Assembly (NCBI GenBank): GCA_947175655.1
Contig: CAMWNQ010000001.1
Span: 1-49,937, forward strand
Source: an uncultured Clostridia bacterium
GTDB taxonomy: Bacteria; Bacillota; Clostridia; Oscillospirales; Ruminococcaceae
Direction of reading: 5' to 3'
DNA: 49,937 nucleotides
Below, piece after piece: positions 3,041 to 48,032 of this stretch. The position numbers and the translations under genes were made by a program. A model generated the notes under the pieces. It was not told where the DNA came from. It did no database searches and was given only the letters and a program-made list of their open reading frames with translations. How positions within the stretch are numbered: the stretch's first letter is position 1; each line of letters starts with the position of its first letter.

Positions 3041-3475
3041 ATGATTGCTATTGGTTGTGACCACGCAGGATATAAACTTAAAGAATTTCTTATAAACGCT
3101 CTTTCCGAAAAGGGATATGAATTCAAAGATATGGGTTGTAATGGTGAACGTTGCGACTATCCGAATATTGCAGAATCCGTTTGTAAAGAAATCAAATCAG
3201 GAAACTGTGACAAGGGTATTTTAATATGCGGTACTGGTATAGGTATGTCAATTGCTGCAAACAAGATAAAGGGAATACGTGCTTCACTCTGTTCTGACTC
3301 TTATTCAACAAAATATACAAGACTTCATAATGATGCTAATGTTATGTGTATGGGTGCAAGGGTTATTGCTTCAGGACTCGCTGAAGAACTTGCCGAAATA
3401 TTCCTCACAACAAACTTTGAAGGCGGTCGCCATCAGCAGAGAATAGACCTTATTACAAATCTTGAAAACAATTAA
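3041..3475 (+). CDS. rpiB: ribose 5-phosphate isomerase B
   Basis: IGCDHAG, DYP, CGTGIGMSIAANK, HNDAN, FEGGRH. Confidence 0.96.
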   Translation: MIAIGCDHAGYKLKEFLINALSEKGYEFKDMGCNGERCDYPNIAESVCKEIKSGNCDKGILICGTGIGMSIAANKIKGIRASLCSDSYSTKYTRLHNDANVMCMGARVIASGLAEELAEIFLTTNFEGGRHQQRIDLITNLENN

Positions 3476-3508
3476 GAATTATTAAATAATTATGCATTAT
3501 AAATTATA
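3470..3508. repeat. 7-bp lattice array (degenerate), overlaps rpiB stop
   Basis: AATTAAG AATTATT aaat AATTATG CATTATA AATTATA. Confidence 0.75.
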
Positions 3509-3526
3509 TAAAAGGAGGTTTTTAAA

Positions 3527-4156
3527 ATGGCTGGATTACACATTATTGAACACCCACTTATTCAGCATAAAATCTCTCTTATGAGAGATAAAAACACAGG
3601 CACTAAGGAATTCAGAGAACTGGTTTCAGAAATAGCTATGCTTATATGCTATGAAGCTACAAGAGATTTACCTCTTAAAGAAATCGAACTCGAAACTCCG
3701 CTTGCAGTTGCAAAATCAAAAATCATATCAGGAAGAAAAATGGCTTTTGTTCCGATTCTCCGTGCCGGACTCGGAATGACAGACGGTATCACTACACTTA
3801 TACCTGCTGCCAAAATAGGACATATCGGACTTTTCCGTGACCCTGATACTCATAAGCCTGTAAAATATTATTCAAAGTTCCCTGATGATATTTCAGAGCG
3901 TGATGCTGTAGTTGTTGACCCTATGCTTGCAACAGGTTTTTCAGCTTGCACTGCTATTGATGAACTTAAAGCACTTGGTGTTACAAATATCAAGTTTATG
4001 TGTATTATATGCTGTCCTGAAGGTGTTGAGGCTCTCCAGAAAGCTCATCCTGATGTTGATATCTATGCAGGAATTATGGACGAATGCCTTAATGAAAATA
4101 AATTTATTGTCCCTGGCGTAGGAGATGCCGGCGACAGAATGTTTGGTACAAAGTAA
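3527..4156 (+). CDS. upp: uracil phosphoribosyltransferase
   Basis: [41 protein letters not shown]. Confidence 0.97.
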
Positions 4157-4160
4157 TTTT

Positions 4161-4197
4161 AAATCCCTCTTCTTTTTAAAGGAGAGGGATTTTTTTT
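4161..4197 (+). terminator. intrinsic terminator after upp, between convergent upp and pyk
   Basis: aaatccctcttcttt / aaaggagagggattt stem followed by T-tract. Confidence 0.85.
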
Positions 4198-4228
4198 AAT
4201 TTATAATTAATAATTATAAATTATGCAC
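4198..4228. repeat. 7-bp lattice array downstream of pyk stop
   Basis: AATTTAT AATTAAT AATTATA AATTATG CAC in register. Confidence 0.75.
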
Positions 4229-4233
4229 TATCT

Positions 4234-5664
4234 TTAATACTGAATTCCGATTTTTTCAACTTTCATAAGATTTGTAGTTCCGGATATTCCGATAGGAACT
4301 CCGGCTGTTATAACTGCAATATCACCTGATTCAACAAGATTACGTTCTTCAGCAGTCTCAACAGCAACTGCAAAAAGTTCATCTGTATTTGACTTTTCAT
4401 CTATAACATATGGAATTATCCCCCAACTGAGATTGAGCTGTCTGCATACTTTTTCACTTGTTGTACAGCCTATAATCATAGCCTGAGGTCTGTACTTTGA
4501 AATAAGTCTTGCAGTTCCTCCACCTTTTGTTACTGTTATAATAGCCTTTGCATTGAGGTCGTGTGCAGTTGTTACAGTAGCATGTGCAATTGCATCAGCT
4601 ATACTGTTTGTTGCATCTGATTTTGAATTCAAGAACTGATGTATATAATCAATATCCTTTTCAGTAGTTTCTGCTATGAGTGCCATTGTCTTCACGGCAT
4701 CTATTGGAAAAGCTCCAGCAGCTGTCTCACCGGAAAGCATTATTGCACTTGTTCCATCATATATGGCATTAGCAACGTCAGTTATTTCGGCTCTTGTAGG
4801 ACGTGGATTTGTAATCATTGATTCAAGCATCTGAGTTGCTGTTATCACCTGTTTACCTGCTCTGTAACCCTTATATATAAGTGTTTTCTGGATTGCCGGA
4901 ATCTTTTCAAAAGGTATCTCAACGCCCATATCACCTCTGGCAATCATAATACCGTCGGCAGCATCGATAATTTCATCGATATTGTCAACGCCGTCACTGT
5001 TTTCAATCTTTGCAATAATTCTGACATCAAACCAACCAAGACTTTGCGTGAATTTTCTGAGATAATGTATATCAGCTGACGACCTTACAAAACTTGCAGC
5101 AATAAAATCAAAACCCATTTTTGCACCAAATTCAAGGTCATTAATATCGTTGTCGCTCAAATATGGCATAGAAAGCTTTACTCCTGGAACATTTATGCCC
5201 TTATTATTGGAAAGTGTACCCCCGTGAACAACTCGGCATATAATATCATTTCCGGATATCTTTTCTGTACAGAGTTCTATAACACCGTCATTTATAAGAA
5301 TCTGAGTTCCTTTTTTTACATCACGTGGAAGATTTTTAAATGAAATACTACCTCTTTTATTGTCACATATAACGTCATCAGTAGTAAGAATATAAGTATC
5401 TCCGTCATAAATTTCAACAGGCTTGTTATCAGCAAATTTTCCGAGTCTTATTTCTGGACCTTTTGTATCAAGAAGTGTTGCTATAGGAAGATTTAATTCT
5501 TCTCTAAGCTTTACAACCTGTTCAAAACGTTTTCTGTGGATTTCATAATCTCCGTGTGAAAAATTAAATCTGGCAACATTCATACCGTTAAGCATCAGTT
5601 CACGCATAACAGATTCATCATCAGTGGCAGGGCCTATAGTACAAATAATTTTGGTTTTTCTCAT
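4234..5664 (-). CDS. pyk: pyruvate kinase
   Basis: RKTKIICTIGP, RFNFSHG, DTKGPEIR, MIARGDMG, ATQMLESM, MLSGETA. Confidence 0.98.
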   Translation of the reverse strand: MRKTKIICTIGPATDDESVMRELMLNGMNVARFNFSHGDYEIHRKRFEQVVKLREELNLPIATLLDTKGPEIRLGKFADNKPVEIYDGDTYILTTDDVICDNKRGSISFKNLPRDVKKGTQILINDGVIELCTEKISGNDIICRVVHGGTLSNNKGINVPGVKLSMPYLSDNDINDLEFGAKMGFDFIAASFVRSSADIHYLRKFTQSLGWFDVRIIAKIENSDGVDNIDEIIDAADGIMIARGDMGVEIPFEKIPAIQKTLIYKGYRAGKQVITATQMLESMITNPRPTRAEITDVANAIYDGTSAIMLSGETAAGAFPIDAVKTMALIAETTEKDIDYIHQFLNSKSDATNSIADAIAHATVTTAHDLNAKAIITVTKGGGTARLISKYRPQAMIIGCTTSEKVCRQLNLSWGIIPYVIDEKSNTDELFAVAVETAEERNLVESGDIAVITAGVPIGISGTTNLMKVEKIGIQY

Positions 5665-5703
5665 AAGAAAAGCTCCTTTTAAATTTTGATTATATTTATA
5701 TTT

Positions 5704-8055
5704 TTATTTTTTCTTTACAAATTTTGGAGTCATTCGTTTAACTCCGGCATTCTCAAAAGCTATTTCAAGAATAACATTATTTTTATCCACCTCTGAAACT
5801 GAAATAACTTTACCTTCTCCGAAAATTTTATGGACAACTGTATCACATATTTTAAAGCTTACATCAGAATGTTCAGTTTTTGAGACAACTGCCCTGTTTC
5901 TGAGCATCTGCTGTTGAAGAGGTATCGACTGTACAGCTGTTACATCCTTATAATTTGAATTTCTGTGTTTTCTTGAAGAATTTTCCTTCTTTTCAACAAA
6001 ATTCATATCTATTTCTTTTATAAATCTTGATGTTATATTGGGACGTGTCTGACCGAAAAGTGTTCTTGTACCTGCACTTGATATATAAAGCTGTTTTTTA
6101 GCACGTGTTATAGCAACATATGCAAGTCTTCTTTCTTCCTCTATATCATCTTCACTATCAAAAGCTCTTGAACTCGGGAAAAGACCGTCTTCCATTCCTA
6201 TGATGAATACATTATCAAATTCAAGTCCCTTTGCAGAATGAACAGTCATAAGCGTTACACAATCAGTGTTTGATTTGTCCCTGTCAGCTTCACTGTAGAG
6301 TGCAACTTCTTCAAGGAAACCATTAAGATTGCCATCCGGATTTTCTTTGAGATATTCAAGCACATTAGTTTTTAATTCCTTAATGTTTTCCAGACGTTCA
6401 GCACCTTCATCACCCATAGATTTAAGCATATTGAGATAGCCTGTTTTTGATACAACTTCATCAATAAAATCAACAAGTGGAATTGTGTTCACCTTTTCAT
6501 TAAGCAAATCAAAAATTCCGGCAACATTTTTAAGCTGTACCGCCTTTTTTGATATAGGCGGATATTCACTCGCATTTCTCATTACTTCAATAGGAGAAAT
6601 CTGTAAATCACGGCATATCTCTTCTATAAGTGAAACAGTTGCATCACCGATTCCCCTTTTTGGTTCATTTACAATTCTTTTGAATCTAAGCATATCAAAA
6701 GGGTTGTTTATAACATTAAGATATGCTGTAATATCTTTTATTTCCTTACGGTCAAAGAATCTCATACCGCCAAAAATCTTATAAGGAATGTTATTCTTTA
6801 CAAGACACTTTTCTATATTATTTGACTGTGCATTCATTCTATACAGAATAGCATTGTTATTATATCTGTTATCTTTTTTGAAGCTGGATTTTATCTGATT
6901 TACAACAAATTCTGATTCATCATTTTCATCAAGTGATTTATACCATATGATTCTGTTGCCTTCAGCTGAATCAGTCCAGAGAGTTTTTGACTTTCTCTGA
7001 TTATTATTTCTTATAAGAGAATTTGCAACGTTGAGAATATTCTTTGTCGAACGATAATTCTGTTCAAGTCTTATAGTTACTGTATTTTTAAACTGCTCTT
7101 CAAAATTGAGAATATTTTTAATGTCTGCCCCTCTGAACTTATAAATGCTTTGGTCGTCATCACCTACAACACATATATTCTGATGACCTGATGAAAGAAG
7201 TGATACAAATTTAAACTGTGCATAGTTGGTATCCTGATATTCGTCAACCATAATATATTTATATATGTTTCTGTAATATTCAAGCACATCAGGACAGGAC
7301 TCAAAAAGCATAACAGCAAAAAGAATAATATCATCAAAATCCAAAGCGTTAGCCTCTTTCATTCTCATCTGATAGCTGGCATATATTCTTGCAACAGTCT
7401 TTGAACGATAATTACTGCCGGCATTATCAAGAACCTGTTTTGGTGATTCAAGTTTATTTTTGGCAGAACTTATCTCTGAAAGCATCGACTTAGGCGGAAA
7501 ATTCTTTTCCGGTATTTCAAGCTCTGCCATAACTGACTTAATCATTCTCTGACTGTCATCTGAATCATAAATAGTAAAGTTTCTGTCAAAGCCAAGACGG
7601 TCTATATTTCTTCTCAAAATTCTAACACAGGCAGAATGAAATGTTGATGCATTCACATTCAGACCGTCTTGTCCGAGTTTGAGTTCAAGACGCTTTTTCA
7701 ATTCTCCGGCAGCTTTATTTGTAAAAGTAATAGCAAGTATATTTTTAGGATTGACTGGTGAAACGGCAATAGCATCACGTAACTGGTCTTCATTTATATT
7801 GATGCCTTTAAGATATGATTCAACAATTTTTTCATCATAAATATTTCCGGAGGATTCATCATTATAAGCATCTCCGAATTTTATAAGATTTATAATTCTG
7901 TTAATCAAAACCGTGGTTTTTCCACTTCCTGCTCCTGCAAGTATAAGCAGAGGGCCTTTTACCTGAAATACGGCTTTTCTCTGCATCTCGTTCAGACCTG
8001 AAAAATATTTTTCAAGAGCCTTTCTTTTTAAATTGATAAAAGATTCATTTTTCAT
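5704..8055 (-). CDS. pcrA: ATP-dependent DNA helicase PcrA (UvrD family)
   Basis: AGAGSGKT, TFTNKAA, VDEYQD, VGDDDQSIY, LEQNYRS, TVHSAKGLEF, EERRLAYVAITRAK; C-terminal VVHKIFGEG domain. Confidence 0.95.
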   Translation of the reverse strand: MKNESFINLKRKALEKYFSGLNEMQRKAVFQVKGPLLILAGAGSGKTTVLINRIINLIKFGDAYNDESSGNIYDEKIVESYLKGININEDQLRDAIAVSPVNPKNILAITFTNKAAGELKKRLELKLGQDGLNVNASTFHSACVRILRRNIDRLGFDRNFTIYDSDDSQRMIKSVMAELEIPEKNFPPKSMLSEISSAKNKLESPKQVLDNAGSNYRSKTVARIYASYQMRMKEANALDFDDIILFAVMLFESCPDVLEYYRNIYKYIMVDEYQDTNYAQFKFVSLLSSGHQNICVVGDDDQSIYKFRGADIKNILNFEEQFKNTVTIRLEQNYRSTKNILNVANSLIRNNNQRKSKTLWTDSAEGNRIIWYKSLDENDESEFVVNQIKSSFKKDNRYNNNAILYRMNAQSNNIEKCLVKNNIPYKIFGGMRFFDRKEIKDITAYLNVINNPFDMLRFKRIVNEPKRGIGDATVSLIEEICRDLQISPIEVMRNASEYPPISKKAVQLKNVAGIFDLLNEKVNTIPLVDFIDEVVSKTGYLNMLKSMGDEGAERLENIKELKTNVLEYLKENPDGNLNGFLEEVALYSEADRDKSNTDCVTLMTVHSAKGLEFDNVFIIGMEDGLFPSSRAFDSEDDIEEERRLAYVAITRAKKQLYISSAGTRTLFGQTRPNITSRFIKEIDMNFVEKKENSSRKHRNSNYKDVTAVQSIPLQQQMLRNRAVVSKTEHSDVSFKICDTVVHKIFGEGKVISVSEVDKNNVILEIAFENAGVKRMTPKFVKKK

Positions 8056-8296
8056 ATTATTATTACCCCATTCAAAAATATAATTTTTGTGACATAATTT
8101 ACGCCTTCAGAGGTGGTGGCGTTTTTAAAAAATTAAATGTTTTTCATTCGGCAGTTAACACAACAGTATCTATTATATCATATTTTTTGCGTTATGCAAA
8201 TACCTTACAATTTATTTTTTATTATAACATATTTTTTTGTTTCAATCCACGTGATTCTACATGACATAGAATAAAAAGCACTCTTCTATGTATTAT

Positions 8297-8325
8297 AGTA
8301 TACCACATTATTTTTATAATGTCAA
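8297..8325 (-). promoter_or_regulatory. sigma-A promoter facing pcrA (distal)
   Basis: minus strand TTGACA, 17 nt, TGgTATACT; a second weaker promoter (TGaTATAAT at 8172-8180) lies closer to pcrA. Confidence 0.6.
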
Positions 8326-8355
8326 AGACTATATTATATTGCTTCGGAGCATAAG

Positions 8356-8376
8356 AATTCAAAATTATGAATTATA
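8356..8376. repeat. short 7-bp lattice array between divergent promoters
   Basis: AATTCAA AATTATG AATTATA. Confidence 0.55.
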
Positions 8377-8383
8377 ATTCCTA

Positions 8384-8413
8384 TTGACTTTTTACTGTAA
8401 TATAGTGTATAAT
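8384..8413 (+). promoter_or_regulatory. sigma-A promoter for TSCPD gene and DUF218 gene
   Basis: TTGACT (8384-8389), 18 nt, TATAAT (8408-8413). Confidence 0.6.
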
Positions 8414-8450
8414 AAAGACATATTAAAAAATGAAAGGAATGACCTATTTT

Positions 8451-8693
8451 ATGGAATACACATATGTGCCGAGCGGAGTTTGCTCAAGAATGATTACTTT
8501 TGAAGTTGAAAATGAAATTGTTTCAAATGTAAAGTTCATAGGTGGATGTAACGGAAATCTCAAAGGACTTGCAAGTCTTGCAGAAGGAATGAATATTCAT
8601 GATGTAATCGAAAAACTTGAAGGAATCAAATGTGGTATGAAACAGACTTCCTGTCCTGACCAGTTTTCACAGGCTCTTAAACAAGCATTATAA
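8451..8693 (+). CDS. TIGR03905-like TSCPD-domain protein
   Basis: YVPSGVCS, FIGGCNGN, GIKCG, TSCPDQ; start placed at MEYTY (ORF track starts at 8430). Confidence 0.88.
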   Translation: MEYTYVPSGVCSRMITFEVENEIVSNVKFIGGCNGNLKGLASLAEGMNIHDVIEKLEGIKCGMKQTSCPDQFSQALKQAL

Positions 8694-8696
8694 AAA

Positions 8697-9476: not shown

Positions 9477-9480
9477 TTTC

Positions 9481-9510
9481 AAACGGATACTATATGTGTC
9501 CGTTTTTTCT
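9481..9510 (+). terminator. intrinsic terminator
   Basis: aaacggatac-tatat-gtgtccgttt followed by T-rich tract. Confidence 0.75.
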
Positions 9511-9531
9511 TTTTTCTTTTTACTTTTATCC

Positions 9532-9560
9532 TTGATTTTTTTATGTTGTAATGATATAAT
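9532..9560 (+). promoter_or_regulatory. sigma-A promoter for moxR operon
   Basis: TTGATT (9532-9537), 17 nt, TGaTATAAT (9555-9560). Confidence 0.7.
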
Positions 9561-9601
9561 AGAAATCGTGAAACAATATAATACAGGAGTGATTAAAAAA
9601 A

Positions 9602-10558: not shown

Positions 10559-10560
10559 TT

Positions 10561-11751: not shown

Positions 11752-11766
11752 AGGGAGGCAGATAAA

Positions 11767-14439: not shown

Positions 14440-14458
14440 AATAAAAGGAGGCAAAAAA

Positions 14459-15007
14459 ATGAATATCAAAAACTTTCGCTACAGCTTTGAGGCACTTATT
14501 ATAATCCTTGGTGTTATAATTCTTATAAATCCTATGGTAATCAATACTGTATTCAATGTACTGGGTTTATCAATTATTCTATATAATGTCATAAAATTTC
14601 TTCTTGGGAAAAGCGGTAGGGCTTTTGAATATCCTATGCCGAATTTCATAAGTGGTATATTGCTTGGTGCTTTAGTTATGATAATACCCCATATGGTAGG
14701 ATTCGGCATACCTCTTGTACTTGGATGCTTTGTGCTTTATAACGGCATAGAAAGACTTGTACAGGCGTGGCAGATTAAACAACAAGGTGGTAAATATTTA
14801 ACACCTGTTGTTATAGGAGCTGTATTTACCATTGTCGGAGTGGTAGTGATTATAAATCCATTCAGAACATCAGCATTTCTTTTCAGACTTCTTGGTCTGG
14901 TACTTGCCGGTTCAGGAGTTTTGAAAATTGCATCTGATGTAAAAACAAGAAAACAGAATGAAGATATTATACCTGATATTATTGAAGGTAAAATACACAA
15001 AGATTAA
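14459..15007 (+). CDS. DUF308/HdeD-like membrane protein
   Basis: about six TM segments with repeated G..i..NP motif; GGAGG RBS. Confidence 0.7.
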   Translation: MNIKNFRYSFEALIIILGVIILINPMVINTVFNVLGLSIILYNVIKFLLGKSGRAFEYPMPNFISGILLGALVMIIPHMVGFGIPLVLGCFVLYNGIERLVQAWQIKQQGGKYLTPVVIGAVFTIVGVVVIINPFRTSAFLFRLLGLVLAGSGVLKIASDVKTRKQNEDIIPDIIEGKIHKD

Positions 15008-15047
15008 TTGTTAATTCATAATTAAGAATGCATAATTATGAATTTTA
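15006..15047. repeat. 7-bp lattice array starting in the stop codon of the DUF308 gene
   Basis: AATTGTT AATTCAT AATTAAG AATGCAT AATTATG AATTTTA. Confidence 0.9.
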
Positions 15048-15099: not shown

Positions 15100-15100
15100 A

Positions 15101-15128
15101 TATTAAGAATGTATAATTATGAATTATA
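15101..15128. repeat. 7-bp lattice array containing stop codon of 15117-15992 ORF
   Basis: TATTAAG AATGTAT AATTATG AATTATA. Confidence 0.8.
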
Positions 15129-15992
15129 TTTTTTTATTCTGTTTATGATGGTGTGTATTATTATTTCGAGAACTCCGAAAGCAAGCAGTGCTATTTCAAA
15201 GACAGTGAATGAATCAGTAATTCTGTACATAAAAGTTGTAAATGCTGTAAATATTTGCTCCTGCTTTATAACAAAGGCATCAAAGTAATCAGATGATGTT
15301 ATATATACGCAGGGAACAAGTCCTATAATTCCGGATATTATAAATGATATGCCTAACCAGTATAATATGTCCCTGATATTCTTAATACATAACAGCAGGA
15401 GCATTATAATACATATAATGTCAGCAATTACAAATAAATAAGTGAGCTTTTCAAGATAACCTATATACCTTCTTACCTGATTAAATACCCCTCTGTCATA
15501 AAGAGTATCGGTCTTGAATATATCCGCAGAACTGTTAATTATCTTATGTGCAGTATCTATTTCCTTTTTCAACTTGTCATTATATGATGAATCTTTAATA
15601 TAACCATTTTCGTCAGCATAATTTTCAAAGAAATTCGTTATACTGGCATCAAGAGCATCAAAATCAATGTCCTTTGAATACTCCGACTGATTTTTTACAT
15701 ATAAAAATGCATTTGAAATACGGTTTTTTATTATATCATCAAGCCATTCCTGAGATATGCTGTTCATATAGACTTCCGGAGGTATTCCAGTAGAGTTATA
15801 TTTTTCATTGAAAGTTTTTTCAATATAGTTTCTGGTTTTTGATGTCAGGTCTTTTTCATCAATAATTTTTATGCAGGTATTTTCATTCAGTATAACTTTA
15901 TTGGAAATAATACATATACCTGTACCGAGCATTGAGAAAACAAGAATTATTGCAATCAGAACACAGGGAATATAAGTCTTTTTGTTTTTCAT
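15117..15992 (-). CDS. hypothetical membrane protein (third gene of sortase operon)
   Basis: 291 aa; N-terminal TM, soluble helical region, three C-terminal TMs; 5 bp from sortase stop. Confidence 0.8.
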   Translation of the reverse strand: MKNKKTYIPCVLIAIILVFSMLGTGICIISNKVILNENTCIKIIDEKDLTSKTRNYIEKTFNEKYNSTGIPPEVYMNSISQEWLDDIIKNRISNAFLYVKNQSEYSKDIDFDALDASITNFFENYADENGYIKDSSYNDKLKKEIDTAHKIINSSADIFKTDTLYDRGVFNQVRRYIGYLEKLTYLFVIADIICIIMLLLLCIKNIRDILYWLGISFIISGIIGLVPCVYITSSDYFDAFVIKQEQIFTAFTTFMYRITDSFTVFEIALLAFGVLEIIIHTIINRIKKYNS

Positions 15993-23263: not shown

Positions 23264-23319
23264 AATTTATAATTTATAATGCATAATTATGAATTCTTAA
23301 TTATGAATTAATAATTGAG
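23264..23319. repeat. 7-bp lattice array between ribBA and ribH, containing ribBA stop
   Basis: AATTTAT AATTTAT AATGCAT AATTATG AATTCTT AATTATG AATTAAT AATTGAG (8 units in register). Confidence 0.92.
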
Positions 23320-24531: not shown

Positions 24532-25044
24532 TTAATATATTTTAAATTCAGAATCGTTTTCCTGAATTTTATCTATCAGTTTATCATTTTTAAATAATTT
24601 ATATGCATCATCATTAGGACTTATCATATTCTGAAAAATCCCTCTTGCATAAATAGTACGGATTGTAAATTTTGAAAAGTCATCCGGAAAATATAACTTG
24701 TGCTTCTGCAAATCGGAAAATAATTTTTTCCACGCATCTTGATTATATTCCGGAAAGTTCCAGAGATTATAAGTCCTATTGTAGTTTATCCACTCCGAAA
24801 CAGGCTTTTGCAGATATTTTTCAGTTGCCTTTATAACTGACTCAAGATTTTCATAATAAAAATAAAATGTCTCCTCACCTTCTTCGTATTCAAGCCAACC
24901 CGATGATATATAATCTATCTGCATTTTATTTTCACGTATATATACTCTTCTGCATATTCCCTGATATTCTGTCAGATAATCTCTTGATACTTCAACAAAT
25001 CCCGAGCCTACCCTTATATATCTTTTTATTTCTTGAATATCCAT
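24532..25044 (-). CDS. hypothetical protein inserted between ribE and ribBA
   Basis: open 170-codon frame; start placed at MDIQEIK after GGATGTGA (track start 25095 reads through the repeat as IIHNYEL); no family recognised. Confidence 0.75.
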   Translation of the reverse strand: MDIQEIKRYIRVGSGFVEVSRDYLTEYQGICRRVYIRENKMQIDYISSGWLEYEEGEETFYFYYENLESVIKATEKYLQKPVSEWINYNRTYNLWNFPEYNQDAWKKLFSDLQKHKLYFPDDFSKFTIRTIYARGIFQNMISPNDDAYKLFKNDKLIDKIQENDSEFKIY

Positions 25045-25065
25045 ATTGCTCTTCACATCCAATCC

Positions 25066-25093
25066 GATTATCAATTCATAATTATGAATTATC
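25066..25093. repeat. 7-bp lattice array at ribE stop
   Basis: GATTATC AATTCAT AATTATG AATTATC; perfect 18-bp palindrome AATTCATAATTATGAATT at 25073-25090. Confidence 0.85.
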
Positions 25094-25745
25094 AAAATCC
25101 GTGTTTTGCAAGAAAATCCATAGTTATACCGGATTTTTCCGACTTATTTTCAAGACTTCCTGAAAAGTTTATAAATTTTTCGACATACTTCCCTATTATA
25201 TCGTTTTCAAGATTCACAATATCTTTTACTTTTTTTTCGGACAATATTGTTTCCTGTTCAGTGTGCGGTATAATTGAAACGCTGAAATTATGGTTTTCAA
25301 TTTTTGCAACAGTAAGACTTATACCGTCAATAGCAACAGAACCTTTTTCAATTATATACTTCATAATATTTTCAGAAGTATGTATTTTATACCATATGGC
25401 ATTATCATCTTTTTTTATACTTATTATTTCTCCTGTACCGTCAATATGTCCGGAAACTATATGACCCCCAAAACGTCCATATGCTGGCATTGCACGTTCA
25501 AGATTTACTGAACTTCCAGTTTTAAGGCTTCCCAGCGATGAACGGCTGAAAGTTTCATTCATAACATCAGCCCTGAATGTCTTTCCGGAAAACTCCGTAA
25601 CAGTAAGACATACTCCGTTTACTGCAATACTGTCACCGATGTGAATATCAGAAAATATTTTCTCTGCCTGTATTTCAAGATATGACTGTGAACCTTTTAC
25701 AATTCTTGTGACTTTACCGATTTCTTCAACTATTCCGGTAAACAT
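25092..25745 (-). CDS. ribE: riboflavin synthase
   Basis: MFTGIVEE, GDSIAVNGVCLTV, VNLERA, GGHIVSGHID, KGSVAIDGISLTV. Confidence 0.97.
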   Translation of the reverse strand: MFTGIVEEIGKVTRIVKGSQSYLEIQAEKIFSDIHIGDSIAVNGVCLTVTEFSGKTFRADVMNETFSRSSLGSLKTGSSVNLERAMPAYGRFGGHIVSGHIDGTGEIISIKKDDNAIWYKIHTSENIMKYIIEKGSVAIDGISLTVAKIENHNFSVSIIPHTEQETILSEKKVKDIVNLENDIIGKYVEKFINFSGSLENKSEKSGITMDFLAKHGF

Positions 25746-26903: not shown

Positions 26904-26950
26904 ATTATGATTACACAATATTAGTTTACAATTTTATTCTATCAAAATTG

Positions 26951-27058
26951 ACCTTCTCACGTCCGGACTATACCGTCGGTACTGGAATTACACCAGTTCG
27001 TGCCAAAGCTTGCGGACTTTTACCGCCGGTAGGGAGTTTCACCCTGCCCCGAAGATTA
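26951..27058 (-). ncRNA. FMN riboswitch (RFN element)
   Basis: minus strand tcttcggggcagggtgaaactccctaccggcggt...agtccgcaa...ggtgtaattccagtaccgacggtatagtccgga...gagaag; upstream of ribD. Confidence 0.96.
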
Positions 27059-27064
27059 TATATC

Positions 27065-27093: not shown

Positions 27094-27121
27094 GAGCTTT
27101 TATAATTATGAATTGAATTTT

Positions 27122-27649
27122 TCAGATTTCGTCCATTGTAGTATTATCATAATTCTGATTTGTATAATACATATCTTGATATTCTTTATTTATATCTCGT
27201 TGTGAATCTTTTTTCTGGTCTTCAAAACGTTCATTGAAATAAGGGAAACCCTTTGCTTGTTTCAGAATATTATATTTTCTGTTCAGTATCATAAACATTG
27301 GCAGACATATTAGTGATGCAAAACAGGATACTATATAAAAAATATACATTGTATAATTACTGTATATGTTAAAATTAAAATTTACAGCAGTAACCATAAC
27401 TGCTATAACACACATTTTGACATCTTTTTTTGTACAGCCAGTTATTCCAAAGAAAAATGCAGTTCCTCTTATAATAATATCCAAAAAATAACTGAATGGT
27501 TTGGGGTGAAGTATAATCATTGCAACATCAAGAAGAAATATCGAAACATTTGCCAGAAGATATATTTTTCCCATAAAATTATACCTTTTCTGATATTTTT
27601 TCATCTGTATTTTACACCAAAACATATTTTCATAATTATTTCTCAACAT
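27122..27649 (-). CDS. hypothetical membrane protein
   Basis: 175 aa with about four TMs and a GFPYFNERF C-terminal motif; short lattice remnant (AATTATG AATTG, 27104-27115) after its stop. Confidence 0.65.
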   Translation of the reverse strand: MLRNNYENMFWCKIQMKKYQKRYNFMGKIYLLANVSIFLLDVAMIILHPKPFSYFLDIIIRGTAFFFGITGCTKKDVKMCVIAVMVTAVNFNFNIYSNYTMYIFYIVSCFASLICLPMFMILNRKYNILKQAKGFPYFNERFEDQKKDSQRDINKEYQDMYYTNQNYDNTTMDEI

Positions 27650-31039: not shown

Positions 31040-31074
31040 AATTAAGAATGCAGAATTATGCATTATGAATTATT
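31040..31074. repeat. 7-bp lattice array in 5' UTR
   Basis: AATTAAG AATGCAG AATTATG CATTATG AATTATT between -10 box and RBS. Confidence 0.88.
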
Positions 31075-34024: not shown

Positions 34025-34052
34025 AATTCATAATTCTTAATTATGAATTAGT
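34025..34052. repeat. 7-bp lattice array
   Basis: AATTCAT AATTCTT AATTATG AATTAGT. Confidence 0.88.
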
Positions 34053-36679: not shown

Positions 36680-36740
36680 TATTTTTGATGCATAATATTA
36701 TAATAATTTCCGACAATCTGAAAAGGAGGATTTTTTCTAC

Positions 36741-37124: not shown

Positions 37125-37148
37125 TAGCAAAGCGAGGTTTTTTTAATA

Positions 37149-38210: not shown

Positions 38211-38242
38211 AAAAGCCGTGCATAAAAGCACGGTCTTTTTTT
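38210..38242. terminator. bidirectional intrinsic terminator
   Basis: aaaaagccgtgc-ataaaa-gcacggtctttttt between convergent genes. Confidence 0.8.
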
Positions 38243-38244
38243 AT

Positions 38245-38283
38245 AATGCATAATTAAGAATTCATAATTATGAATTATGCATT
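38245..38283. repeat. 7-bp lattice array after pdxK stop
   Basis: AATGCAT AATTAAG AATTCAT AATTATG AATTATG CATT; ends AATGCATAATT / AATTATGCATT are inverted repeats. Confidence 0.92.
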
Positions 38284-38287
38284 GCGA

Positions 38288-39139: not shown

Positions 39140-39155
39140 AAATTACACCTCTTAA

Positions 39156-40235: not shown

Positions 40236-40288
40236 AATGTAAAACCTCCAGAAAATTTTTTATTTTCCTATTTAATTTTAATTTATAA

Positions 40289-40957: not shown

Positions 40958-40979
40958 ATAATAAAACCTCCGATGATAC

Positions 40980-41000
40980 AATTCTTAATTATAAATTAGT
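40980..41000. repeat. 7-bp lattice array containing asnB stop
   Basis: AATTCTT AATTATA AATTAGT. Confidence 0.7.
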
Positions 41001-42875: not shown

Positions 42876-42990
42876 ACTTCTGCCTCCCGTAAAAATTGTT
42901 CCAGATTTTTTCTTCTGTAATCTGCCTAATATATTATACTACAATTTTACTGGCATTGCAACAGAAAAAATAAAAATGCAAAATATAATA

Positions 42991-43019
42991 TTGACTTTTT
43001 TTCAGAAATATATTATAAT
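42991..43019 (+). promoter_or_regulatory. sigma-A promoter for greA-lysS
   Basis: TTGACT (42991-42996), 17 nt, TATAAT (43014-43019). Confidence 0.8.
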
Positions 43020-43105
43020 GTAATTCATAATTATAAATTCACAATGCATAATTATGCATTAAATTAATTTTGGAAAGGAAAAGCTATTCAGAAATATATT
43101 ATAAT
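43001..43105 (+). repeat. 19-bp perfect direct repeat flanking a lattice array
   Basis: TTCAGAAATATATTATAAT at 43001-43019 and 43087-43105. Confidence 0.9.
43022..43060. repeat. 7-bp lattice array in greA leader
   Basis: AATTCAT AATTATA AATTCAC AATGCAT AATTATG CATT; perfect palindrome AATGCATAATTATGCATT at 43043-43060. Confidence 0.92.
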
Positions 43106-43132
43106 ATGTGTTTTTAATAGCAGGTTTTTATT

Positions 43133-43606
43133 ATGGCAGTAAAAAAACAAATGTCAGCTGAAGCTTTTGAAAAACTTGAAAAAGAGCTTTCATATCTCGT
43201 AACAGTAAAGCGTGCAGAGGTTGCACAGAAACTTAAAGAAGCCCGTTCTTTCGGAGACCTTTCTGAAAATGCTGAATATGATGAAGCAAAAAACGAACAG
43301 GCTATTCTTGAAGCACAGATTTCTGAACTCCAGTATAATATTGATAATGCTGAAATCGTTGACAATGACAGCATTTCTGTTGACGAAATCGGTATGAGTT
43401 CAATTATGAAGATAAGACGTGTCGGTTCAGATAAAATAGAAACTTTTACAATCGTCGCATCAAATCAGGTAAATGTAAAAGAAGGTAAGATTTCAGACGA
43501 ATCGCCTCTCGGAAAATCTGCCCTCAAAAAGAAAGTCGGAGATGTATTTATAGTAAATGCACCTATAGGCGAAATGGAATATGAAGTTATCGAAATATCA
43601 AAGTAA
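43133..43606 (+). CDS. greA: transcription elongation factor GreA
   Basis: ARSFGDLSENAEYDEAKNEQ, KISDESPLG. Confidence 0.97.
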   Translation: MAVKKQMSAEAFEKLEKELSYLVTVKRAEVAQKLKEARSFGDLSENAEYDEAKNEQAILEAQISELQYNIDNAEIVDNDSISVDEIGMSSIMKIRRVGSDKIETFTIVASNQVNVKEGKISDESPLGKSALKKKVGDVFIVNAPIGEMEYEVIEISK

Positions 43607-43632
43607 TATTACGCAAAGGAAAGATTGTATTT

Positions 43633-45207
43633 ATGAGTGAAATCAAGAACAATATCCCTGAAGAACAGACTGAACAGGATATTAATATTTTAAAGAAAAT
43701 CAGAATTGAAAAGCTTGATGATTTGAAGTCAAGAAATCTAAATCCATATGAAATAACAAAGTATGATGTTACTGCTAAAAATGCTGATTTAAAATCACAG
43801 TATGAAGCTGATGAAAAGAAAATCATTGAAGAAGCTCAGGGTGATGAAGAAAAAATTACAGCAGGTCTCGAAAAAATAAAAGAAAAGAAAGTCAGAATCG
43901 CCGGCAGAGTTATGAGCTGGAGAAATATGGGCAAGGCTAATTTTATTGATGTCCGTGACGGTTCAGACAGAATTCAGATTTATGTACGTTCAAATGATAT
44001 CGGTGCTGAAGAATTCAAGGAATTCAAAAAATGGGACATCGGCGATATAGTTGGTGTTGAAGGATTCGTATTCAGAACAAAAAAAGGCGAAATCTCTATA
44101 CACGCACTTAAAATAGTTCTTCTTTCAAAATCACTTCTTCCGCTCCCTGAAAAATGGCACGGACTCAAAGACCAAGATATGAGATACCGTCAGAGATATG
44201 TTGACCTTATAGTAAATCCGAATGTAAAGGATACTTTCCAGAAGAGAAGTCAGATTTTACGTGAAATAAGAAACTATCTTGACAATATGGGATATCTTGA
44301 AGTTGATACTCCTGTACTTCATACTCTTGAAATCGGTGCTGCTGCAAGACCTTTCGTTACTCACCATAACGCCCTTGATATTGATATGTACCTCAGAATA
44401 GAAACAGAACTCTATTTAAAACGTCTTGTTGTTGGCGGATTTGAAAGAGTTTATGAAGTAGGCCGTATTTTCAGAAATGAGGGTATGGATACTTCACATA
44501 ACCCTGAATTTACTTCTGTTGAAATGTATCAGGCTTACACCGACTATATAGGTATGATGGATATTATCGAGGATATGTACAAGACTATTGCAAGAAATGT
44601 CTGCGGTACAGATGTAATAACCTATCAGGGTACTGAAATTGACCTCGGCAAAAAATGGGAACGTCTCACAATGGTTGAGGCAGTAAAGAAATATGCCGGT
44701 GTTGATTACAACGACTGGGCTACTGATGAAGATGCAAGAGCCTGTGCAAAGGAAAAAAATGTTGAAGTTGATGAGGGTGAAAATGCTACAAAGGGTCACG
44801 TACTTATAGCATTCTTTGATGCATTCGTTGAAGATAAGCTCATACAGCCTACTATTATATATGATTATCCTGTTGAAAACTCTCCTCTTGCAAAGAGAAA
44901 ATCTTCAAATCCTGCTTTCACTGAAAGATTCGAATACTTTATATATTGCAGGGAAATGGGAAATGCCTTCTCAGAACTCAATGACCCTATCGACCAGAAG
45001 GAAAGATTTGTAAAACAGGTTGAAGCAAAACGTGCACAGGGTGCTAATGCAGAAGTTGATGAAGATTTCGTAACAGCTCTTGAATATGGTCTTCCACCGA
45101 CAGGCGGTCTTGGATTCGGACTCGACAGACTTGTAATGCTTCTTACAGATAGTGCATCAATAAGAGATGTTCTTTTATTCCCGACAATGAAACCAATGAA
45201 CAATTAA
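43633..45207 (+). CDS. lysS: lysine--tRNA ligase (class II)
   Basis: YRQRYVDL, GAAARPF.THHN, YLKRL.VGG, FRNEG, HNPEFT, YGLPPTGG.G.G.DRL. Confidence 0.98.
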   Translation: MSEIKNNIPEEQTEQDINILKKIRIEKLDDLKSRNLNPYEITKYDVTAKNADLKSQYEADEKKIIEEAQGDEEKITAGLEKIKEKKVRIAGRVMSWRNMGKANFIDVRDGSDRIQIYVRSNDIGAEEFKEFKKWDIGDIVGVEGFVFRTKKGEISIHALKIVLLSKSLLPLPEKWHGLKDQDMRYRQRYVDLIVNPNVKDTFQKRSQILREIRNYLDNMGYLEVDTPVLHTLEIGAAARPFVTHHNALDIDMYLRIETELYLKRLVVGGFERVYEVGRIFRNEGMDTSHNPEFTSVEMYQAYTDYIGMMDIIEDMYKTIARNVCGTDVITYQGTEIDLGKKWERLTMVEAVKKYAGVDYNDWATDEDARACAKEKNVEVDEGENATKGHVLIAFFDAFVEDKLIQPTIIYDYPVENSPLAKRKSSNPAFTERFEYFIYCREMGNAFSELNDPIDQKERFVKQVEAKRAQGANAEVDEDFVTALEYGLPPTGGLGFGLDRLVMLLTDSASIRDVLLFPTMKPMNN

Positions 45208-45279
45208 CAATTCATAATTAAGAATGCATAATTATAAATTAAGAATGCACCAATTATGCATTATGAATTATAAATTAAT
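45195..45279. repeat. longest 7-bp lattice array, includes last lysS codons and stop
   Basis: AATGAAC AATTAAC AATTCAT AATTAAG AATGCAT AATTATA AATTAAG AATGCAC c AATTATG CATTATG AATTATA AATTAAT (12 units, one 1-bp slip). Confidence 0.95.
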
Positions 45280-45287
45280 AAAAAAGG

Positions 45288-45327
45288 GGGGTACACTGCA
45301 TTTTTTCAGAAAAATACGGTGCACCCC
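45288..45327 (+). terminator. imperfect stem-loop after lysS
   Basis: ggggtacactgcattttt / aaaaatacggtgcacccc; weak T-tail. Confidence 0.45.
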
Positions 45328-45348
45328 TGAATTTTAAGGTGATTTTTT

Positions 45349-46248
45349 ATGGAAGAAAATAAAAAAAATACTCCCCAAGATGATGAAAAGGCAAAAGTCG
45401 GGGAAAAAAGTGTATTTGATGTCCTGAAAGAACAGCGTAAACAGCAGAAACATCAGCAGATGGAATTTGAAAGTAAGATGGCTGAAAAAATCGCTGAGGA
45501 AAAAGAAAAAGAACGCCGTGAATACGAAAAAAAACTACAGAATGAAAAAATAGAACTCCTCCGCATAAAACAGACCAATGCAGAGGAGAGCGATATACTT
45601 CCGATAAATCAGAAGGACGAGGAAATACAGCTTACATTCGGGAAAAAAATTGTAAATTTCTTTTATCTGAATAAATGGTGGCTGGGACTTTTTGCAATGT
45701 TTACAGTTATTGCCGGATTTCTTATATATGACTATGCCACAAAGAAAAATCCGGATATGATACTTCTTTACTTTGAAGAAAATGAAAATATGGACTTGCT
45801 TGCTATTAATGATTATCTGGCAACATTATGTGAGGATTTCAATGACGACGGCAAAGTTCTTTCTGATGTTTATTACATTCCATACACCGGAAACGACCAG
45901 AAAGACTATTCAAGCGGAGCTTCTACAAAAATTCTGGCAGAAATGCAGTCCGCTGAAGCAATGATTGTAATATGCAATAAAAAATCAGAAGAAACTATTA
46001 ACCCTGAATATAATCTTGTAAATCTCGAATCGCTCTATCCTGATAACCCACTTGTAGAAAAATACGGATTTTATCTTAAAGACTCAAAGTTTGCCCAAAA
46101 AATAGGATATGCCGGAGAAATCAATGATGATTTATACCTCGGAATCAGAAAACCTCAGGAACTTGCTTGGGCTTCTCAGAAAGAAATGCAGGAAGTTTAT
46201 GATGATGCTATAATAGTTCTCGACAGAATGATTCAGGACTTGTCCTAA
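45349..46248 (+). CDS. hypothetical single-pass membrane protein
   Basis: charged coiled-coil N-terminus, NFF..NKWW + TM, DFNDDGKV Dx[DN]xDG-like loop; 4-bp 3' overlap with hemW. Confidence 0.8.
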   Translation: MEENKKNTPQDDEKAKVGEKSVFDVLKEQRKQQKHQQMEFESKMAEKIAEEKEKERREYEKKLQNEKIELLRIKQTNAEESDILPINQKDEEIQLTFGKKIVNFFYLNKWWLGLFAMFTVIAGFLIYDYATKKNPDMILLYFEENENMDLLAINDYLATLCEDFNDDGKVLSDVYYIPYTGNDQKDYSSGASTKILAEMQSAEAMIVICNKKSEETINPEYNLVNLESLYPDNPLVEKYGFYLKDSKFAQKIGYAGEINDDLYLGIRKPQELAWASQKEMQEVYDDAIIVLDRMIQDLS

Positions 46249-47339
46249 AAAATCAGATACTCAATAATAGAATTTGATATTAAATATCCCTCAGGCGTAA
46301 GGGATATTTTTTTTTCGTCAAAGTTTATATATCCGGCATTTATAAGATTTTGTATTTTTGGGATTATCTCCGGATATGAAAATCTTTTGCCATATATCTC
46401 AAGACCTTCTTTTAGCCTTAGTCGGAGCATTGCATACTCCTTTTTTCCGCAGGGATTTTCATCAGTCACATATATATCCTGAACCGGACTTTTTATAAAA
46501 CTTTTGATATCCGGTTTTACAGCAAATCTTTTATTTCCAAAGCAAGAATGTGATGACGTTCCTATTCCGAGATAATCTTCACACTTCCAGTATTTATTAT
46601 TGTGAATGCTCTGAAATCCAGACTTGGCAAAATTCGATACTTCATATTGTATAAAACCTTTTTTTTCAAGTGCACTTACCATAAACAAGTACATATCTGA
46701 TATATAATCATCATCAGGAAGTGAATTTATAATATCCGGAGTATTGAAAGCTGTATTTTCCTCAATCTTTAATATATATGATGATATATGGGTTACGGGC
46801 AGTTCCGAAAGTTTTTCTATAGTATATCCGATATTATCAATATTCTGACCTGCCACGCCTATCATCATATCACAGGATATATTTCTGAATCCGACATTTA
46901 CTGCATCTGTAACTGTATTTACTGCTTTTTCTGCTGTATGAGTTCTGCCCAGTGTTATGAGTTCGGACGGTACAAGCGACTGTACTCCCACTGAAAGTCT
47001 GTTTATTCCCATATTATAGAAATCTCTTAATTTCTGACTGTTTACTGTATTGGGATTGACTTCAATAGTAATCTCCGGATTTTCAGACACTTTAAAATTT
47101 ACATTTAAAGCATCAAGTATTCTTTCTATGCAGTCAGCAGGTATAAGAGAGGGAGTGCCTCCGCCGAAATATACTGTATCAATAATATTTTCACTGTTAC
47201 CATAATATATCAGATTTCTTATAACAGCATCAGTATATTTTAAAACGAGTTCTTTGCTGTAACTAACAGAAAAGAAATCACAGTAGGGGCATTTCTTTGC
47301 ACAAAAAGGTATATGAATATATATCCCCAGATTTTTCAT
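46245..47339 (-). CDS. hemW: radical SAM heme chaperone HemW (HemN-like)
   Basis: YIHIPFCAKKCPYCDF, YFGGGTPS, YEVSNF, HN.KYW; downstream of lepA. Confidence 0.92.
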   Translation of the reverse strand: MKNLGIYIHIPFCAKKCPYCDFFSVSYSKELVLKYTDAVIRNLIYYGNSENIIDTVYFGGGTPSLIPADCIERILDALNVNFKVSENPEITIEVNPNTVNSQKLRDFYNMGINRLSVGVQSLVPSELITLGRTHTAEKAVNTVTDAVNVGFRNISCDMMIGVAGQNIDNIGYTIEKLSELPVTHISSYILKIEENTAFNTPDIINSLPDDDYISDMYLFMVSALEKKGFIQYEVSNFAKSGFQSIHNNKYWKCEDYLGIGTSSHSCFGNKRFAVKPDIKSFIKSPVQDIYVTDENPCGKKEYAMLRLRLKEGLEIYGKRFSYPEIIPKIQNLINAGYINFDEKKISLTPEGYLISNSIIEYLIF

Positions 47340-47653
47340 TAAAAACCGTTCTTTCTCTGGGAAACGTCAAGCTTGAAGAAAAATGCATTCACAATCCTAG
47401 GCACAAATATTATAGCAAGCAATGCCGGAATAATCCACAAATCAAGTGTATTAAGAAATGCATATACTATAAATGCAAACATTGCAAAACAAAATACTGC
47501 ATTAAATATAGTTGCACCTTTTCCATTAGCGATTCTCTCTCCGCATTTGGGACAAGGTCTGCCTTTTGAATTAAGCTGTCCAGCGAGTGCCTTTGTAAGA
47601 GGAGTGAAAGTTTTTTCCCCACAGCACGGACATTTATATATACTGTCTTTCAT
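47339..47653 (-). CDS. small CxxC...CxxC zinc-finger membrane protein
   Basis: CPCCG...CPKCG followed by two TMs; stop overlaps hemW ATG (TAATG). Confidence 0.8.
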   Translation of the reverse strand: MKDSIYKCPCCGEKTFTPLTKALAGQLNSKGRPCPKCGERIANGKGATIFNAVFCFAMFAFIVYAFLNTLDLWIIPALLAIIFVPRIVNAFFFKLDVSQRKNGF

Positions 47654-47664
47654 ATAAAAAACTC

Positions 47665-47976
47665 CTACTTTCTTTTAAATATTATATCATCAGGAAAAAG
47701 TTCTGTATCTGTAAAGTCTAAATCCTGTACACTTTCAGCTTCATTATCAATCATAAGTCTGTAAGTTGCAAAGCAGTTTTCCTGATATGGAAGTCTAAGT
47801 ACTTCAAATTTATCGGCACTTTCAATGTTATTTTTTTCAAGTGTATTCAGCCACTTCAAAGCCTTGTCAACAGATTTGAGATTTTTAAGATTTATGATTC
47901 TGTCAGTATCCTGTTTTTTCAATTCGTTCACAATTTCTTTTCTTTTATCGTTCAATATATCTATGACATATTTCAT
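47665..47976 (-). CDS. hypothetical protein
   Basis: 103 aa ORF with GTGGTGA RBS, co-oriented between lepA and hemW. Confidence 0.65.
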   Translation of the reverse strand: MKYVIDILNDKRKEIVNELKKQDTDRIINLKNLKSVDKALKWLNTLEKNNIESADKFEVLRLPYQENCFATYRLMIDNEAESVQDLDFTDTELFPDDIIFKRK

Positions 47977-47997
47977 AGAAAATCACCACACTTTAAT

Positions 47998-48032
47998 AAT
48001 TCATAATTATGAATTCTTAATTATGCATTTAT
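47998..48032. repeat. 7-bp lattice array directly after lepA stop
   Basis: AATTCAT AATTATG AATTCTT AATTATG CATTTAT. Confidence 0.92.

What the first reader, a model, noticed from the sequence alone, without database searches (positions are those of the whole stretch)
3470..48032. Dispersed family of strand-symmetric 7-bp lattice arrays at gene junctions
Seen: at least 14 arrays of 3-12 heptamers in strict register, at 3470, 4198, 8356, 15006, 15101, 23264, 25066, 31040, 34025, 38245, 40980, 43022, 45195 and 47998, with weak remnants at 27104, 39154 and 40280. Each unit is AATT (or AATG/CATT) plus a triplet drawn mostly from reverse-complement pairs (CAT/ATG, AAG/CTT, ATA/TAT, AAT/ATT), so the lattice reads alike on both strands. 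Forward and reverse units are interleaved, giving 18-bp palindromes (AATTCATAATTATGAATT, AATGCATAATTATGCATT). All are extragenic or at gene ends; I saw none inside coding regions. Known: heptameric tandem repeats (STRR) occur in cyanobacteria and REP palindromes follow stop codons in enterobacteria; I know no characterised equivalent with this grammar in Clostridia. Inference: simple slippage copies one orientation and would not interleave flipped units, so hairpin-primed template switching, gene conversion or a dedicated enzyme may build them. They could be a binding lattice for a DNA- or RNA-binding protein (3 units = 21 bp, about two helical turns) or recombination sites. At about one per 3.5 kb, the genome could hold hundreds.
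Basis: partly seen in the sequence, partly recalled or inferred. Interest (0 to 1): 0.85.

Follow-up and report, generated by a model that had tools for sequence, protein, structure and literature searches.

The report
Heptamer hairpin swarm in one domain
Dozens of short 7-base-repeat hairpins, likely gene-less remnants of a small selfish gene cassette, sit at gene ends in just one stretch of about 200 kb of this gut bacterium's chromosome, and that same stretch also shows a bump in GC content and has a repeat at most of its rearrangement joints, which suggests a local zone of DNA recombination.

Summary
The arrays are real: 66 of four or more cores in the genome against 1-2 in shuffles, and 1 of 82 lies inside a gene. 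They are not a random two-strand lattice: 42 of 64 are one forward run followed by one reverse run. Such inverted 7-base arms bracket four-helix-bundle (23S-IVS-type) genes in the genus (32 of 36 loci, 0 of 221 control genes), some with the same units. This assembly has no such gene, so the arrays are likely gene-less arms. The scan noted this cassette family before in other genomes (186 notes, one on local spread). New here: not hundreds genome-wide but 82, 73 of them in one syntenic block (about 85-fold denser in its core), absent at the same junctions in the two closest relatives. All 6 rearranged junctions in the core carry an array (27 of 72 syntenic ones do). The block coincides with a smooth, lineage-specific dome of third-position GC, away from dnaA and parS. 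63 of 64 arrays differ in sequence, so they are likely built unit by unit, not transposed whole. Cause and direction remain inferred.

The parts
3470..3510 (.). Array at rpiB stop / upp RBS; supplies the rpiB stop codon; register slip inside
   Evidence: about 26 bases absent in G152 and G155
4198..4225 (.). Array between convergent upp and pyk, after a terminator-like hairpin; rearranged junction
8356..8376 (.). Short array between divergent uvrD/pcrA-like and TSCPD-domain genes; rearranged junction
15006..15047 (.). Array at the stop of the DUF308 gene; with 15101 it brackets a terminator-like hairpin; rearranged junction
15101..15128 (.). Partner array holding the stop of the convergent ORF 15117-15992
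23264..23319 (.). Eight-core array at ribBA stop / ribH RBS; extends a TTAATAATT seed that both relatives keep in the same register
25066..25093 (.). Array at the ribE stop, beside an ORF (24532-25095) that G152 lacks here
27104..27120 (.). Weak remnant beside ORF 27122-27649, upstream of the FMN riboswitch
   Evidence: not above chance on its own
31040..31074 (.). Array between a promoter-like stretch and the RBS of the zinc-ribbon gene
   Evidence: 28-36 bases absent in relatives
34025..34052 (.). Array after the glnA terminator-like hairpin
38245..38286 (.). Six-core array between convergent genes, after a terminator-like hairpin
40980..41000 (.). Short array holding the asnB stop
43022..43063 (.). 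Six-core array in the greA leader
   Evidence: absent in G152 and G155
45195..45279 (.). Paired forward and reverse arms (about 12 units, 1-base slip) holding the lysS stop
   Evidence: present with small indels in a relative about 91% alike
47998..48032 (.). Five-core array at the lepA stop; reverse complement starts with the commonest 25-mers of the family

Best explanation
The arrays are likely gene-less, often fused, arms of a small selfish cassette in which a four-helix-bundle (23S-IVS-type) gene lies between two inverted runs of 7-base units, and in this lineage they have likely multiplied by recombination-type copying within one chromosomal zone. Shown: same architecture and units as cassette arms in relatives; new since the split from G152/G155; placed at stop codon / RBS junctions; nearly every array unique; confined to one block; present at rearranged junctions; block coincides with a GC3 dome. 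Inferred: a broken or stalled 3' end at an AT-rich TAATT site pairs in 7-base register with an existing array, copies a few units and returns. Because AATT is its own complement this gives mosaics and flipped units; switching between two arrays would give inversions with an array at each end. Inserts survive only where they do no harm, at gene ends, since they carry stops in all frames. The zone is inferred to be recombination- or repair-rich, which would also slow its drift to AT. The four-helix pentamer would bind the arms (about one subunit per unit, untested) and the seeding gene would since have been lost or not assembled.
For: 32 of 36 genus four-helix loci tested (36 of 66 matches fetched) have inverted period-7 arms, 0 of 221 control genes; about 14 of the 36, by eye, use the AATT lattice, and G129 (L131) and G014 (L007) use the window's own units. 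G002 has an internally shortened four-helix gene between such arms and many empty pairs with gaps of 5-570 bases. 10 or more lattice hits in 39 of 49 genomes with the gene against 33 of 112 without (kin are not independent). 42 of 64 arrays are forward-then-reverse. Absent at 7 of 7 aligned orthologous junctions in G152 and G155. 39 of 61 start within -25..+15 of a stop, null mean 19, maximum 34 in 300; 25 of 64 supply the stop. 63 of 64 distinct. 73 of 82 project into 180-400 kb of G152:C1, peak 260-320 kb. 6 of 6 rearranged core junctions against 27 of 72 syntenic, p=0.004. GC3 shift against G152: core -0.011, tail -0.035, rest -0.056, p=2e-21, smooth along the block, repeated against G155 with more AT-to-GC and fewer GC-to-AT changes.
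Against: No four-helix gene or remnant in the assembly (85% complete), and none within 1-1.5 kb of 150 phage, metagenome and genome loci carrying such arrays, so the protein is not shown to be needed. Neighbouring arrays are not more alike than distant ones (p=0.08-0.38), which local templating would favour. Rearrangements also occur without arrays: 6 of 6 outside the block and 2 of 3 in the tail, and their rate in the block is not higher. Which lineage inverted is unresolved. Confinement is not general: arrays are dispersed in G094, G046, G024. The forward/reverse vocabulary was chosen from the same arrays, though G002 and G129 arms agree with it. No enzyme was identified.
Confidence: 0.6

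Rival explanations
1. Introgression: the block was taken up by homologous recombination from a close, array-rich, GC3-higher lineage; arrays and GC dome are both passengers and nothing special happens locally.
For: One event explains arrays and GC3 together; divergence to G152 is the same inside and outside (0.349 against 0.347), as expected if the donor split after G152; the left edge is sharper than the right.
Against: The GC3 shift falls smoothly over about 300 kb; genes next to tail arrays are not GC-richer than others (8 genes, -0.057 against -0.035); a donor with the core's density genome-wide would exceed every one of 161 genus genomes (highest 331 pattern hits, while G000 has 222, nearly all in the block).
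Confidence: 0.22
2. Host regulatory lattice: the arrays are selected binding sites of a host protein, for example the arginine repressor, whose recalled Firmicute box fits the 18-base palindrome, or a chromosome-organising protein that marks one domain.
For: The central 18-mer fits an ARG-box consensus recalled from memory and many arrays match it within 2 mismatches; argR is present; domain-limited sites are typical of chromosome-organising proteins (general knowledge).
Against: The arg operon on C45 has box-like sites but no lattice; arrays sit at stops of unrelated genes; they are absent from the same block in G152 and G155; the block is not at dnaA or parS.
Confidence: 0.08
3. Purely mutational: polymerase slippage at 7-base period plus quasi-palindrome template switching in AT-rich gaps, with no link to the cassette.
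For: Arrays extend native TAATT seeds in register (ribBA junction); every array differs; heptamers are the commonest long simple repeats in bacteria (Mrazek 2007 as summarised in PMC4679880).
Against: The same units and the same exact 32-mer recur in other species and as cassette arms; 85-fold confinement within an evenly AT-rich genome; 55 of 161 genus genomes have no 4-core hit.
Confidence: 0.07
4. Binning artefact: the array contigs come from a second organism in a mixed bin.
For: Fragmented assembly (229 contigs); GC3 differs between array and other contigs.
Against: The array contigs tile one continuous block of G152 and G155 without duplicates, grade into array-free contigs, and have the same identity to G152 (79% against 80% amino acid, p=0.59); contamination 1.4%.
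Confidence: 0.03

Closest known systems
ORF-bearing 23S rRNA intervening sequences with an S23p / four-helix-bundle gene (Coxiella, Leptospira; PMC4990558, passages read; PF05635, TIGR02436; PDB 2RLD, 2GSC)
   Same: Terminal inverted stem with tandem heptamers of variable number; in the genus the same protein family sits between inverted heptamer arms; closest structures have five chains.
   Different: Here no gene, not in rRNA but at mRNA gene junctions, 82 copies, arms fused into stems mostly shorter than the 28-bp IVS stem; RNase III cutting untested; regional confinement not described.
REP / REPIN elements with RAYT transposases (PMC3116915, passages read)
   Same: Extragenic palindromic doublets after stop codons, decaying to singlets, tied to a single-copy gene flanked by the same repeat.
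   Different: REPs are near-identical copies of a fixed palindrome; these are unit mosaics (63 of 64 distinct) and the linked gene is not a known transposase.
Beggiatoaceae / cyanobacterial TAACTGA heptamer repeats (PMC4679880, first part and passages read) and Geobacter paired heptamer sites (PMC2700814, passages read)
   Same: Intergenic 7-base arrays of 2-6 units, some split by related units, overlapping stops and lying just before starts; Geobacter sets occur in pairs on opposite strands.
   Different: Mostly direct repeats of one unit; no link to four-helix genes in the passages read ('helix bundle' 0 occurrences in PMC4679880); no regional dome reported.
Heptamer-flanked four-helix cassettes noted earlier by this scan (186 unchecked notes; e1-721905 on local spread)
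   Same: Same cassette family, decay to gene-less hairpins, local clustering.
   Different: Here the scale is a 150-220 kb domain with no cassette gene left, arrays at rearranged junctions and a matching GC3 dome; two look-ups for these features returned nothing.

Membership tests
Four-helix-bundle / IVS-type heptamer cassette | Inverted arms built of 7-base units | tested here: met
   42 of 64 arrays forward-then-reverse; longest fold with z -3 to -10
Four-helix-bundle / IVS-type heptamer cassette | Same unit vocabulary as arms around a four-helix gene | tested here: met
   L131 (G129) and L007 (G014) arms
Four-helix-bundle / IVS-type heptamer cassette | PF05635/TIGR02436 gene between the arms | tested here: not met
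   None in G000 (assembly 85% complete), so these are at most non-autonomous derivatives
23S rRNA intervening sequence | Located in an rRNA gene | tested here: not met
   At protein-gene junctions, and one pair around a tRNA-Arg
23S rRNA intervening sequence | Excised from RNA by RNase III | not testable with these tools
   No RNA holder listed
REP/REPIN-RAYT | Many near-identical copies of one palindrome | tested here: not met
   63 of 64 distinct; commonest 25-mer in 8 arrays
REP/REPIN-RAYT | Extragenic, next to stop codons | tested here: met
REP/REPIN-RAYT | RAYT gene flanked by the repeat | not tested
   No RAYT family search was run
MITE | Fixed ends and target-site duplication | tested here: inconclusive
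   Empty sites in relatives about 86% alike are AT-rich seeds; no clear duplication can be read
ArgR (ARG box) regulon | Match to the 18-base box | tested here: met
   Consensus recalled from memory, not from a call; matches
ArgR (ARG box) regulon | At promoters of arginine genes and conserved in relatives | tested here: not met
   No lattice on the arg contig C45; absent in G152/G155
Simple heptamer tandem repeat (STRR/LSSR) | Direct repeats of one unit | tested here: not met
   Mixed units; only 14 of 64 single-orientation
Known RNA family (Rfam) | Match at gathering score | tested here: not met
   Only the FMN riboswitch at 26947-27060

The most novel reading that the evidence does not exclude
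A selfish heptamer element has built its own recombination domain: seeded once, the arrays spread as a wave over about 200 kb by templated unit-by-unit synthesis, became the joints of local inversions, and raised local recombination or repair enough to bend the substitution pattern of a 500-kb region toward GC. This would be a bacterial analogue of a repeat-driven recombination hot domain and a natural test of GC-biased gene conversion in bacteria, with the orphan four-helix pentamer as the protein that reads 7-base units.
Probability: 0.25. Interest if true: 0.88.

Novelty: new variant of a known kind. Interest (0 to 1): 0.66.

Why it matters
Heptamer repeats are over-represented in bacterial genomes without a known cause, and the four-helix-bundle family is large and without a known function. 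This genome separates the repeat from its gene and shows what the repeat does alone: it colonises gene junctions, marks rearrangement joints and tracks a regional change in base composition that the two closest relatives lack. The three genomes give an internal control for asking whether short hairpin repeats drive local recombination and GC-biased fixation, or only gather where recombination is already high.

Tried and rejected
Four-helix gene or remnant in G000: none by PF05635, TIGR02436, my own HMM from 49 loci, or tblastn. GxxExxY nuclease (PF13366): one weak hit under the cut-off, not near arrays. Reverse transcriptase: no hit with a crude motif regex on called genes, not a real family search. 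DUF6291 remnant between two arrays at the density peak (C113): only 1 of 30 DUF6291 loci in the genus has a lattice, so taken as incidental. Origin, parS or skew switch as the centre: dnaA is on C15, parS cluster on C15/C121/C45, skew does not change sign across the block; my dif-like scan was too loose to use. Neighbour similarity of arrays: not significant. Polarity of inversions: G082 and 30 genomes searched for ackA and pyk neighbours were not syntenic at these joints. GC3 against array density in complete G047: rho 0.33, p=0.16 on twenty 8-kb samples. G152's arrays all lie around its four-helix gene, but that is inside a type I restriction operon on an 8.9-kb contig, so it may be an imported island and is not counted as proof of local spread. 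Close relatives by exact 32-mer in metagenome contigs: 5 loci, none alignable to G000. Sequencing runs: no RNA holder listed. Literature: searches found no paper linking dispersed heptamer arrays to four-helix genes or describing them in Ruminococcus; subscription papers and supplements were not seen (the Geobacter supplementary alignments may bear on this). PMC5524665 and PMC3184786 term searches gave nothing relevant. No structure or complex prediction was run.
Full report
Observation. The window is contig C1 of a 1.79-Mb, 229-contig assembly, 85% complete. Gene content and the titles of records that share an exact 32-base array (two Ruminococcus sp., one R. flavefaciens, one Treponema) point to a Ruminococcus-like organism; that name is my inference. 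In the genome the pattern core-NNN at period 7 gives 66 arrays of four or more cores against 1.2-1.8 in local shuffles and 0-2 at other periods; three-core hits (40 against about 35) are not above chance by pattern alone. Intergenic dinucleotide shuffles give 0 against 10 observed in the window and 0.15 against 55 in the core contigs. I then worked with a filtered set of 82 arrays: 64 of four or more cores (2 of the 66 dropped for atypical triplets) and 18 three-core ones with typical triplets.

Grammar. Triplets CAT, AAG and TAT lie early in an array and their complements ATG, CTT and ATA late. With that split, 42 of 64 arrays are one forward run then one reverse run, 14 have one orientation and 8 are compound; reverse-to-forward switches number 9 against 56.6 after shuffling. 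The split was chosen from these arrays, so this is partly circular, but arms in G002 and G129 use it the same way. The commonest size is five cores (26 of 66), the size of one arm in relatives. 63 of 64 arrays differ in sequence, so they are unit mosaics and not copies of one element.

Position. With my own ORF caller, 1 of 82 lies inside a gene and 54 of 69 classed junctions are co-directional. 39 of 61 begin within -25 to +15 of an upstream stop (null mean 19, maximum 34 in 300) and 25 of 64 supply the stop codon. At 7 of 7 aligned orthologous junctions the two closest relatives by LepA (G152, G155) lack the array; at ribBA a TTAATAATT seed is kept in register. A relative about 91% alike in two gut-metagenome runs of one study shares the upp-pyk order and carries the lysS array with small indels.

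What they derive from. I recalled that four-helix-bundle genes often have 7-base repeats beside them and tested it. TIGR02436 hits 49 of 161 genus genomes (66 matches). Of 36 loci fetched, 32 have inverted period-7 arms, against 0 of 221 short control genes. The unit differs between cassettes; about 14 of the 36, by eye, use the AATT lattice, and those of G129 and G014 use the window's units. The G129 protein is PF05635 (E 1e-31) and matches PDB 2RLD (E 1.6e-42) and 2GSC, both with five chains. G002 holds a shortened gene between arms and many empty pairs. Genomes with the gene more often have 10 or more lattice hits (39 of 49 against 33 of 112; kin are not independent). G000 has no such gene or remnant, and none lay beside 150 other loci with these arrays. 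In print, the Coxiella 23S IVS has tandem heptamers of variable number in its stem before the S23p gene and is cut by RNase III (PMC4990558, passages). The scan's own notes describe this cassette in at least 182 other genomes; I had tested the link before reading them.

Confinement. The long arrays lie on 22 contigs where 52 are expected (minimum 42 in 2000 draws). Laid on G152, 74 of 82 arrays could be placed on C1, 73 of them between 180 and 400 kb, with 8, 6, 4, 7, 11, 18, 11, 4, 2, 1, 1 per 20 kb; 8 were not placed, two of which fall on the next contig toward dnaA. The vocabulary occurs 117, 17.7 and 1.4 times per 100 kb in core, tail and rest. G152 and G155 have no four-core lattice in the stretches of this block that I fetched. 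The block tiles both relatives and has the same identity to G152 as the rest, so a mixed bin is unlikely. It is not at dnaA or parS. Other genomes differ: dispersed in G094, G046 and G024, locally clustered in G129, and in the origin half in complete G047 (28 of 32 loci).

Rearrangements. G152 and G155 share a gene order that differs from G000 by two overlapping inversions with joints at C67:3928 and window 4198, 8356 and 15006, and by one more at C113:4289 / C98:4004-4045. All 6 carry arrays, against 27 of 72 syntenic gaps of 15 bases or more (p=0.004) or 18 of 45 non-operon-like ones. Against this, 6 rearranged junctions outside the block and 2 of 3 in the tail have none, the rate is not raised, and G152 and G155 are sisters, so the lineage that inverted is not known. 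Genes missing in G152 here can also be losses in that stem (aspS is an example), so I do not claim cargo capture (17 of 29 such edges carry arrays, p=0.08).

GC dome. At synonymous codons of orthologues G152 is flat (GC3 0.28-0.29) while G000 has 0.270 in the core, 0.257 in the tail and 0.228 elsewhere (97, 93 and 291 genes; p=2e-21). The shift peaks at 240-270 kb and falls steadily to dnaA, if G152 C2 follows C1, which I assumed; it correlates with array count per 30 kb (rho 0.89, bins autocorrelated). G155 as reference repeats it; at sites where both relatives agree, the core has more AT-to-GC (0.139 against 0.105) and fewer GC-to-AT differences (0.413 against 0.473). Genes beside tail arrays are not GC-richer, so this does not look like a patchwork of donor fragments. 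That such a pattern fits GC-biased gene conversion is my own knowledge; a search for it with these terms found nothing relevant.

Mechanism. Best reading (0.6): gene-less cassette arms, multiplied by in-register template switching in a recombination- or repair-rich zone, filtered to gene ends, and used as inversion joints. Shown are ancestry by architecture and vocabulary, lineage-specific presence, position, uniqueness, confinement and the two correlations. Inferred are the copying step, the role of the pentamer, and the direction of cause; the lack of neighbour similarity counts against the simplest local-copy model. A transferred block (0.22) is the main rival; a host operator lattice (0.08), pure slippage (0.07) and a binning artefact (0.03) fit worse.

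Verdict. A real feature and a new variant of a known kind: it works like REPINs around a RAYT gene and shares parts with ORF-bearing IVS elements, but belongs to neither by the tests above. The family link was noted before by this scan; the domain-scale confinement with rearrangement joints and a GC3 dome was not found in two look-ups or in the literature searches listed. Interest 0.66.

Noticed in passing
window 26947-27060 (-): FMN riboswitch ahead of the ribD-ribE-ribBA-ribH operon; an extra 187-aa ORF without Pfam match (24532-25095) sits inside the operon and is lacking in G152.
   Followed up: partly
G000:C113:1991-2676 (L154): Decayed DUF6291 (phage replication-type) gene between a forward and a reverse array at the density peak; a related piece lies on C130.
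   Followed up: partly
G000:C47:8987-9300 (L152): tRNA-Arg gene bracketed by two long arrays, next to a lipoprotein gene that G152 lacks, near the centre of the dome; a possible former integration site.
   Followed up: no
L005, L007, L008, L009, L016 (asd-dapA junction); L126/L131/L101-type atpG-atpD and argH loci: The same junctions in different species hold four-helix cassettes with different heptamer units, in either orientation, suggesting repeated replacement at preferred sites.
   Followed up: partly
L164-L166 (G129:C16 545-585 kb; G094:C4 248-288 kb): Array clusters in two other genomes also include the minD-mgsA-hisS neighbourhood that lies in G000's core; may be chance or a position effect.
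   Followed up: no
L213-L218, L242-L245 and other viral loci: Phage contigs carry the same lattice at several gene junctions, four or five in 9-17 kb, with no four-helix gene within 1 kb.
   Followed up: partly
G047:C1: In this near-complete genome 28 of 32 array loci lie in the origin-proximal half, with a 1.1-Mb gap around the terminus.
   Followed up: partly
G000:C15, C121, C45: Eleven parS-like palindromes with a CG-ended variant cluster beside dnaA and through the arg operon.
   Followed up: no
window 43063-43130 and G000:C45 argG leader: The greA leader and the argG leader share a similar stretch (GGAAAGGAAAAGCTAT...TAGCAGGT), perhaps a small conserved leader element.
   Followed up: no
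window 49870-49937; C13 3' end: The last bases of these contigs look unlike the genome and may be adapter or assembly residue.
   Followed up: no
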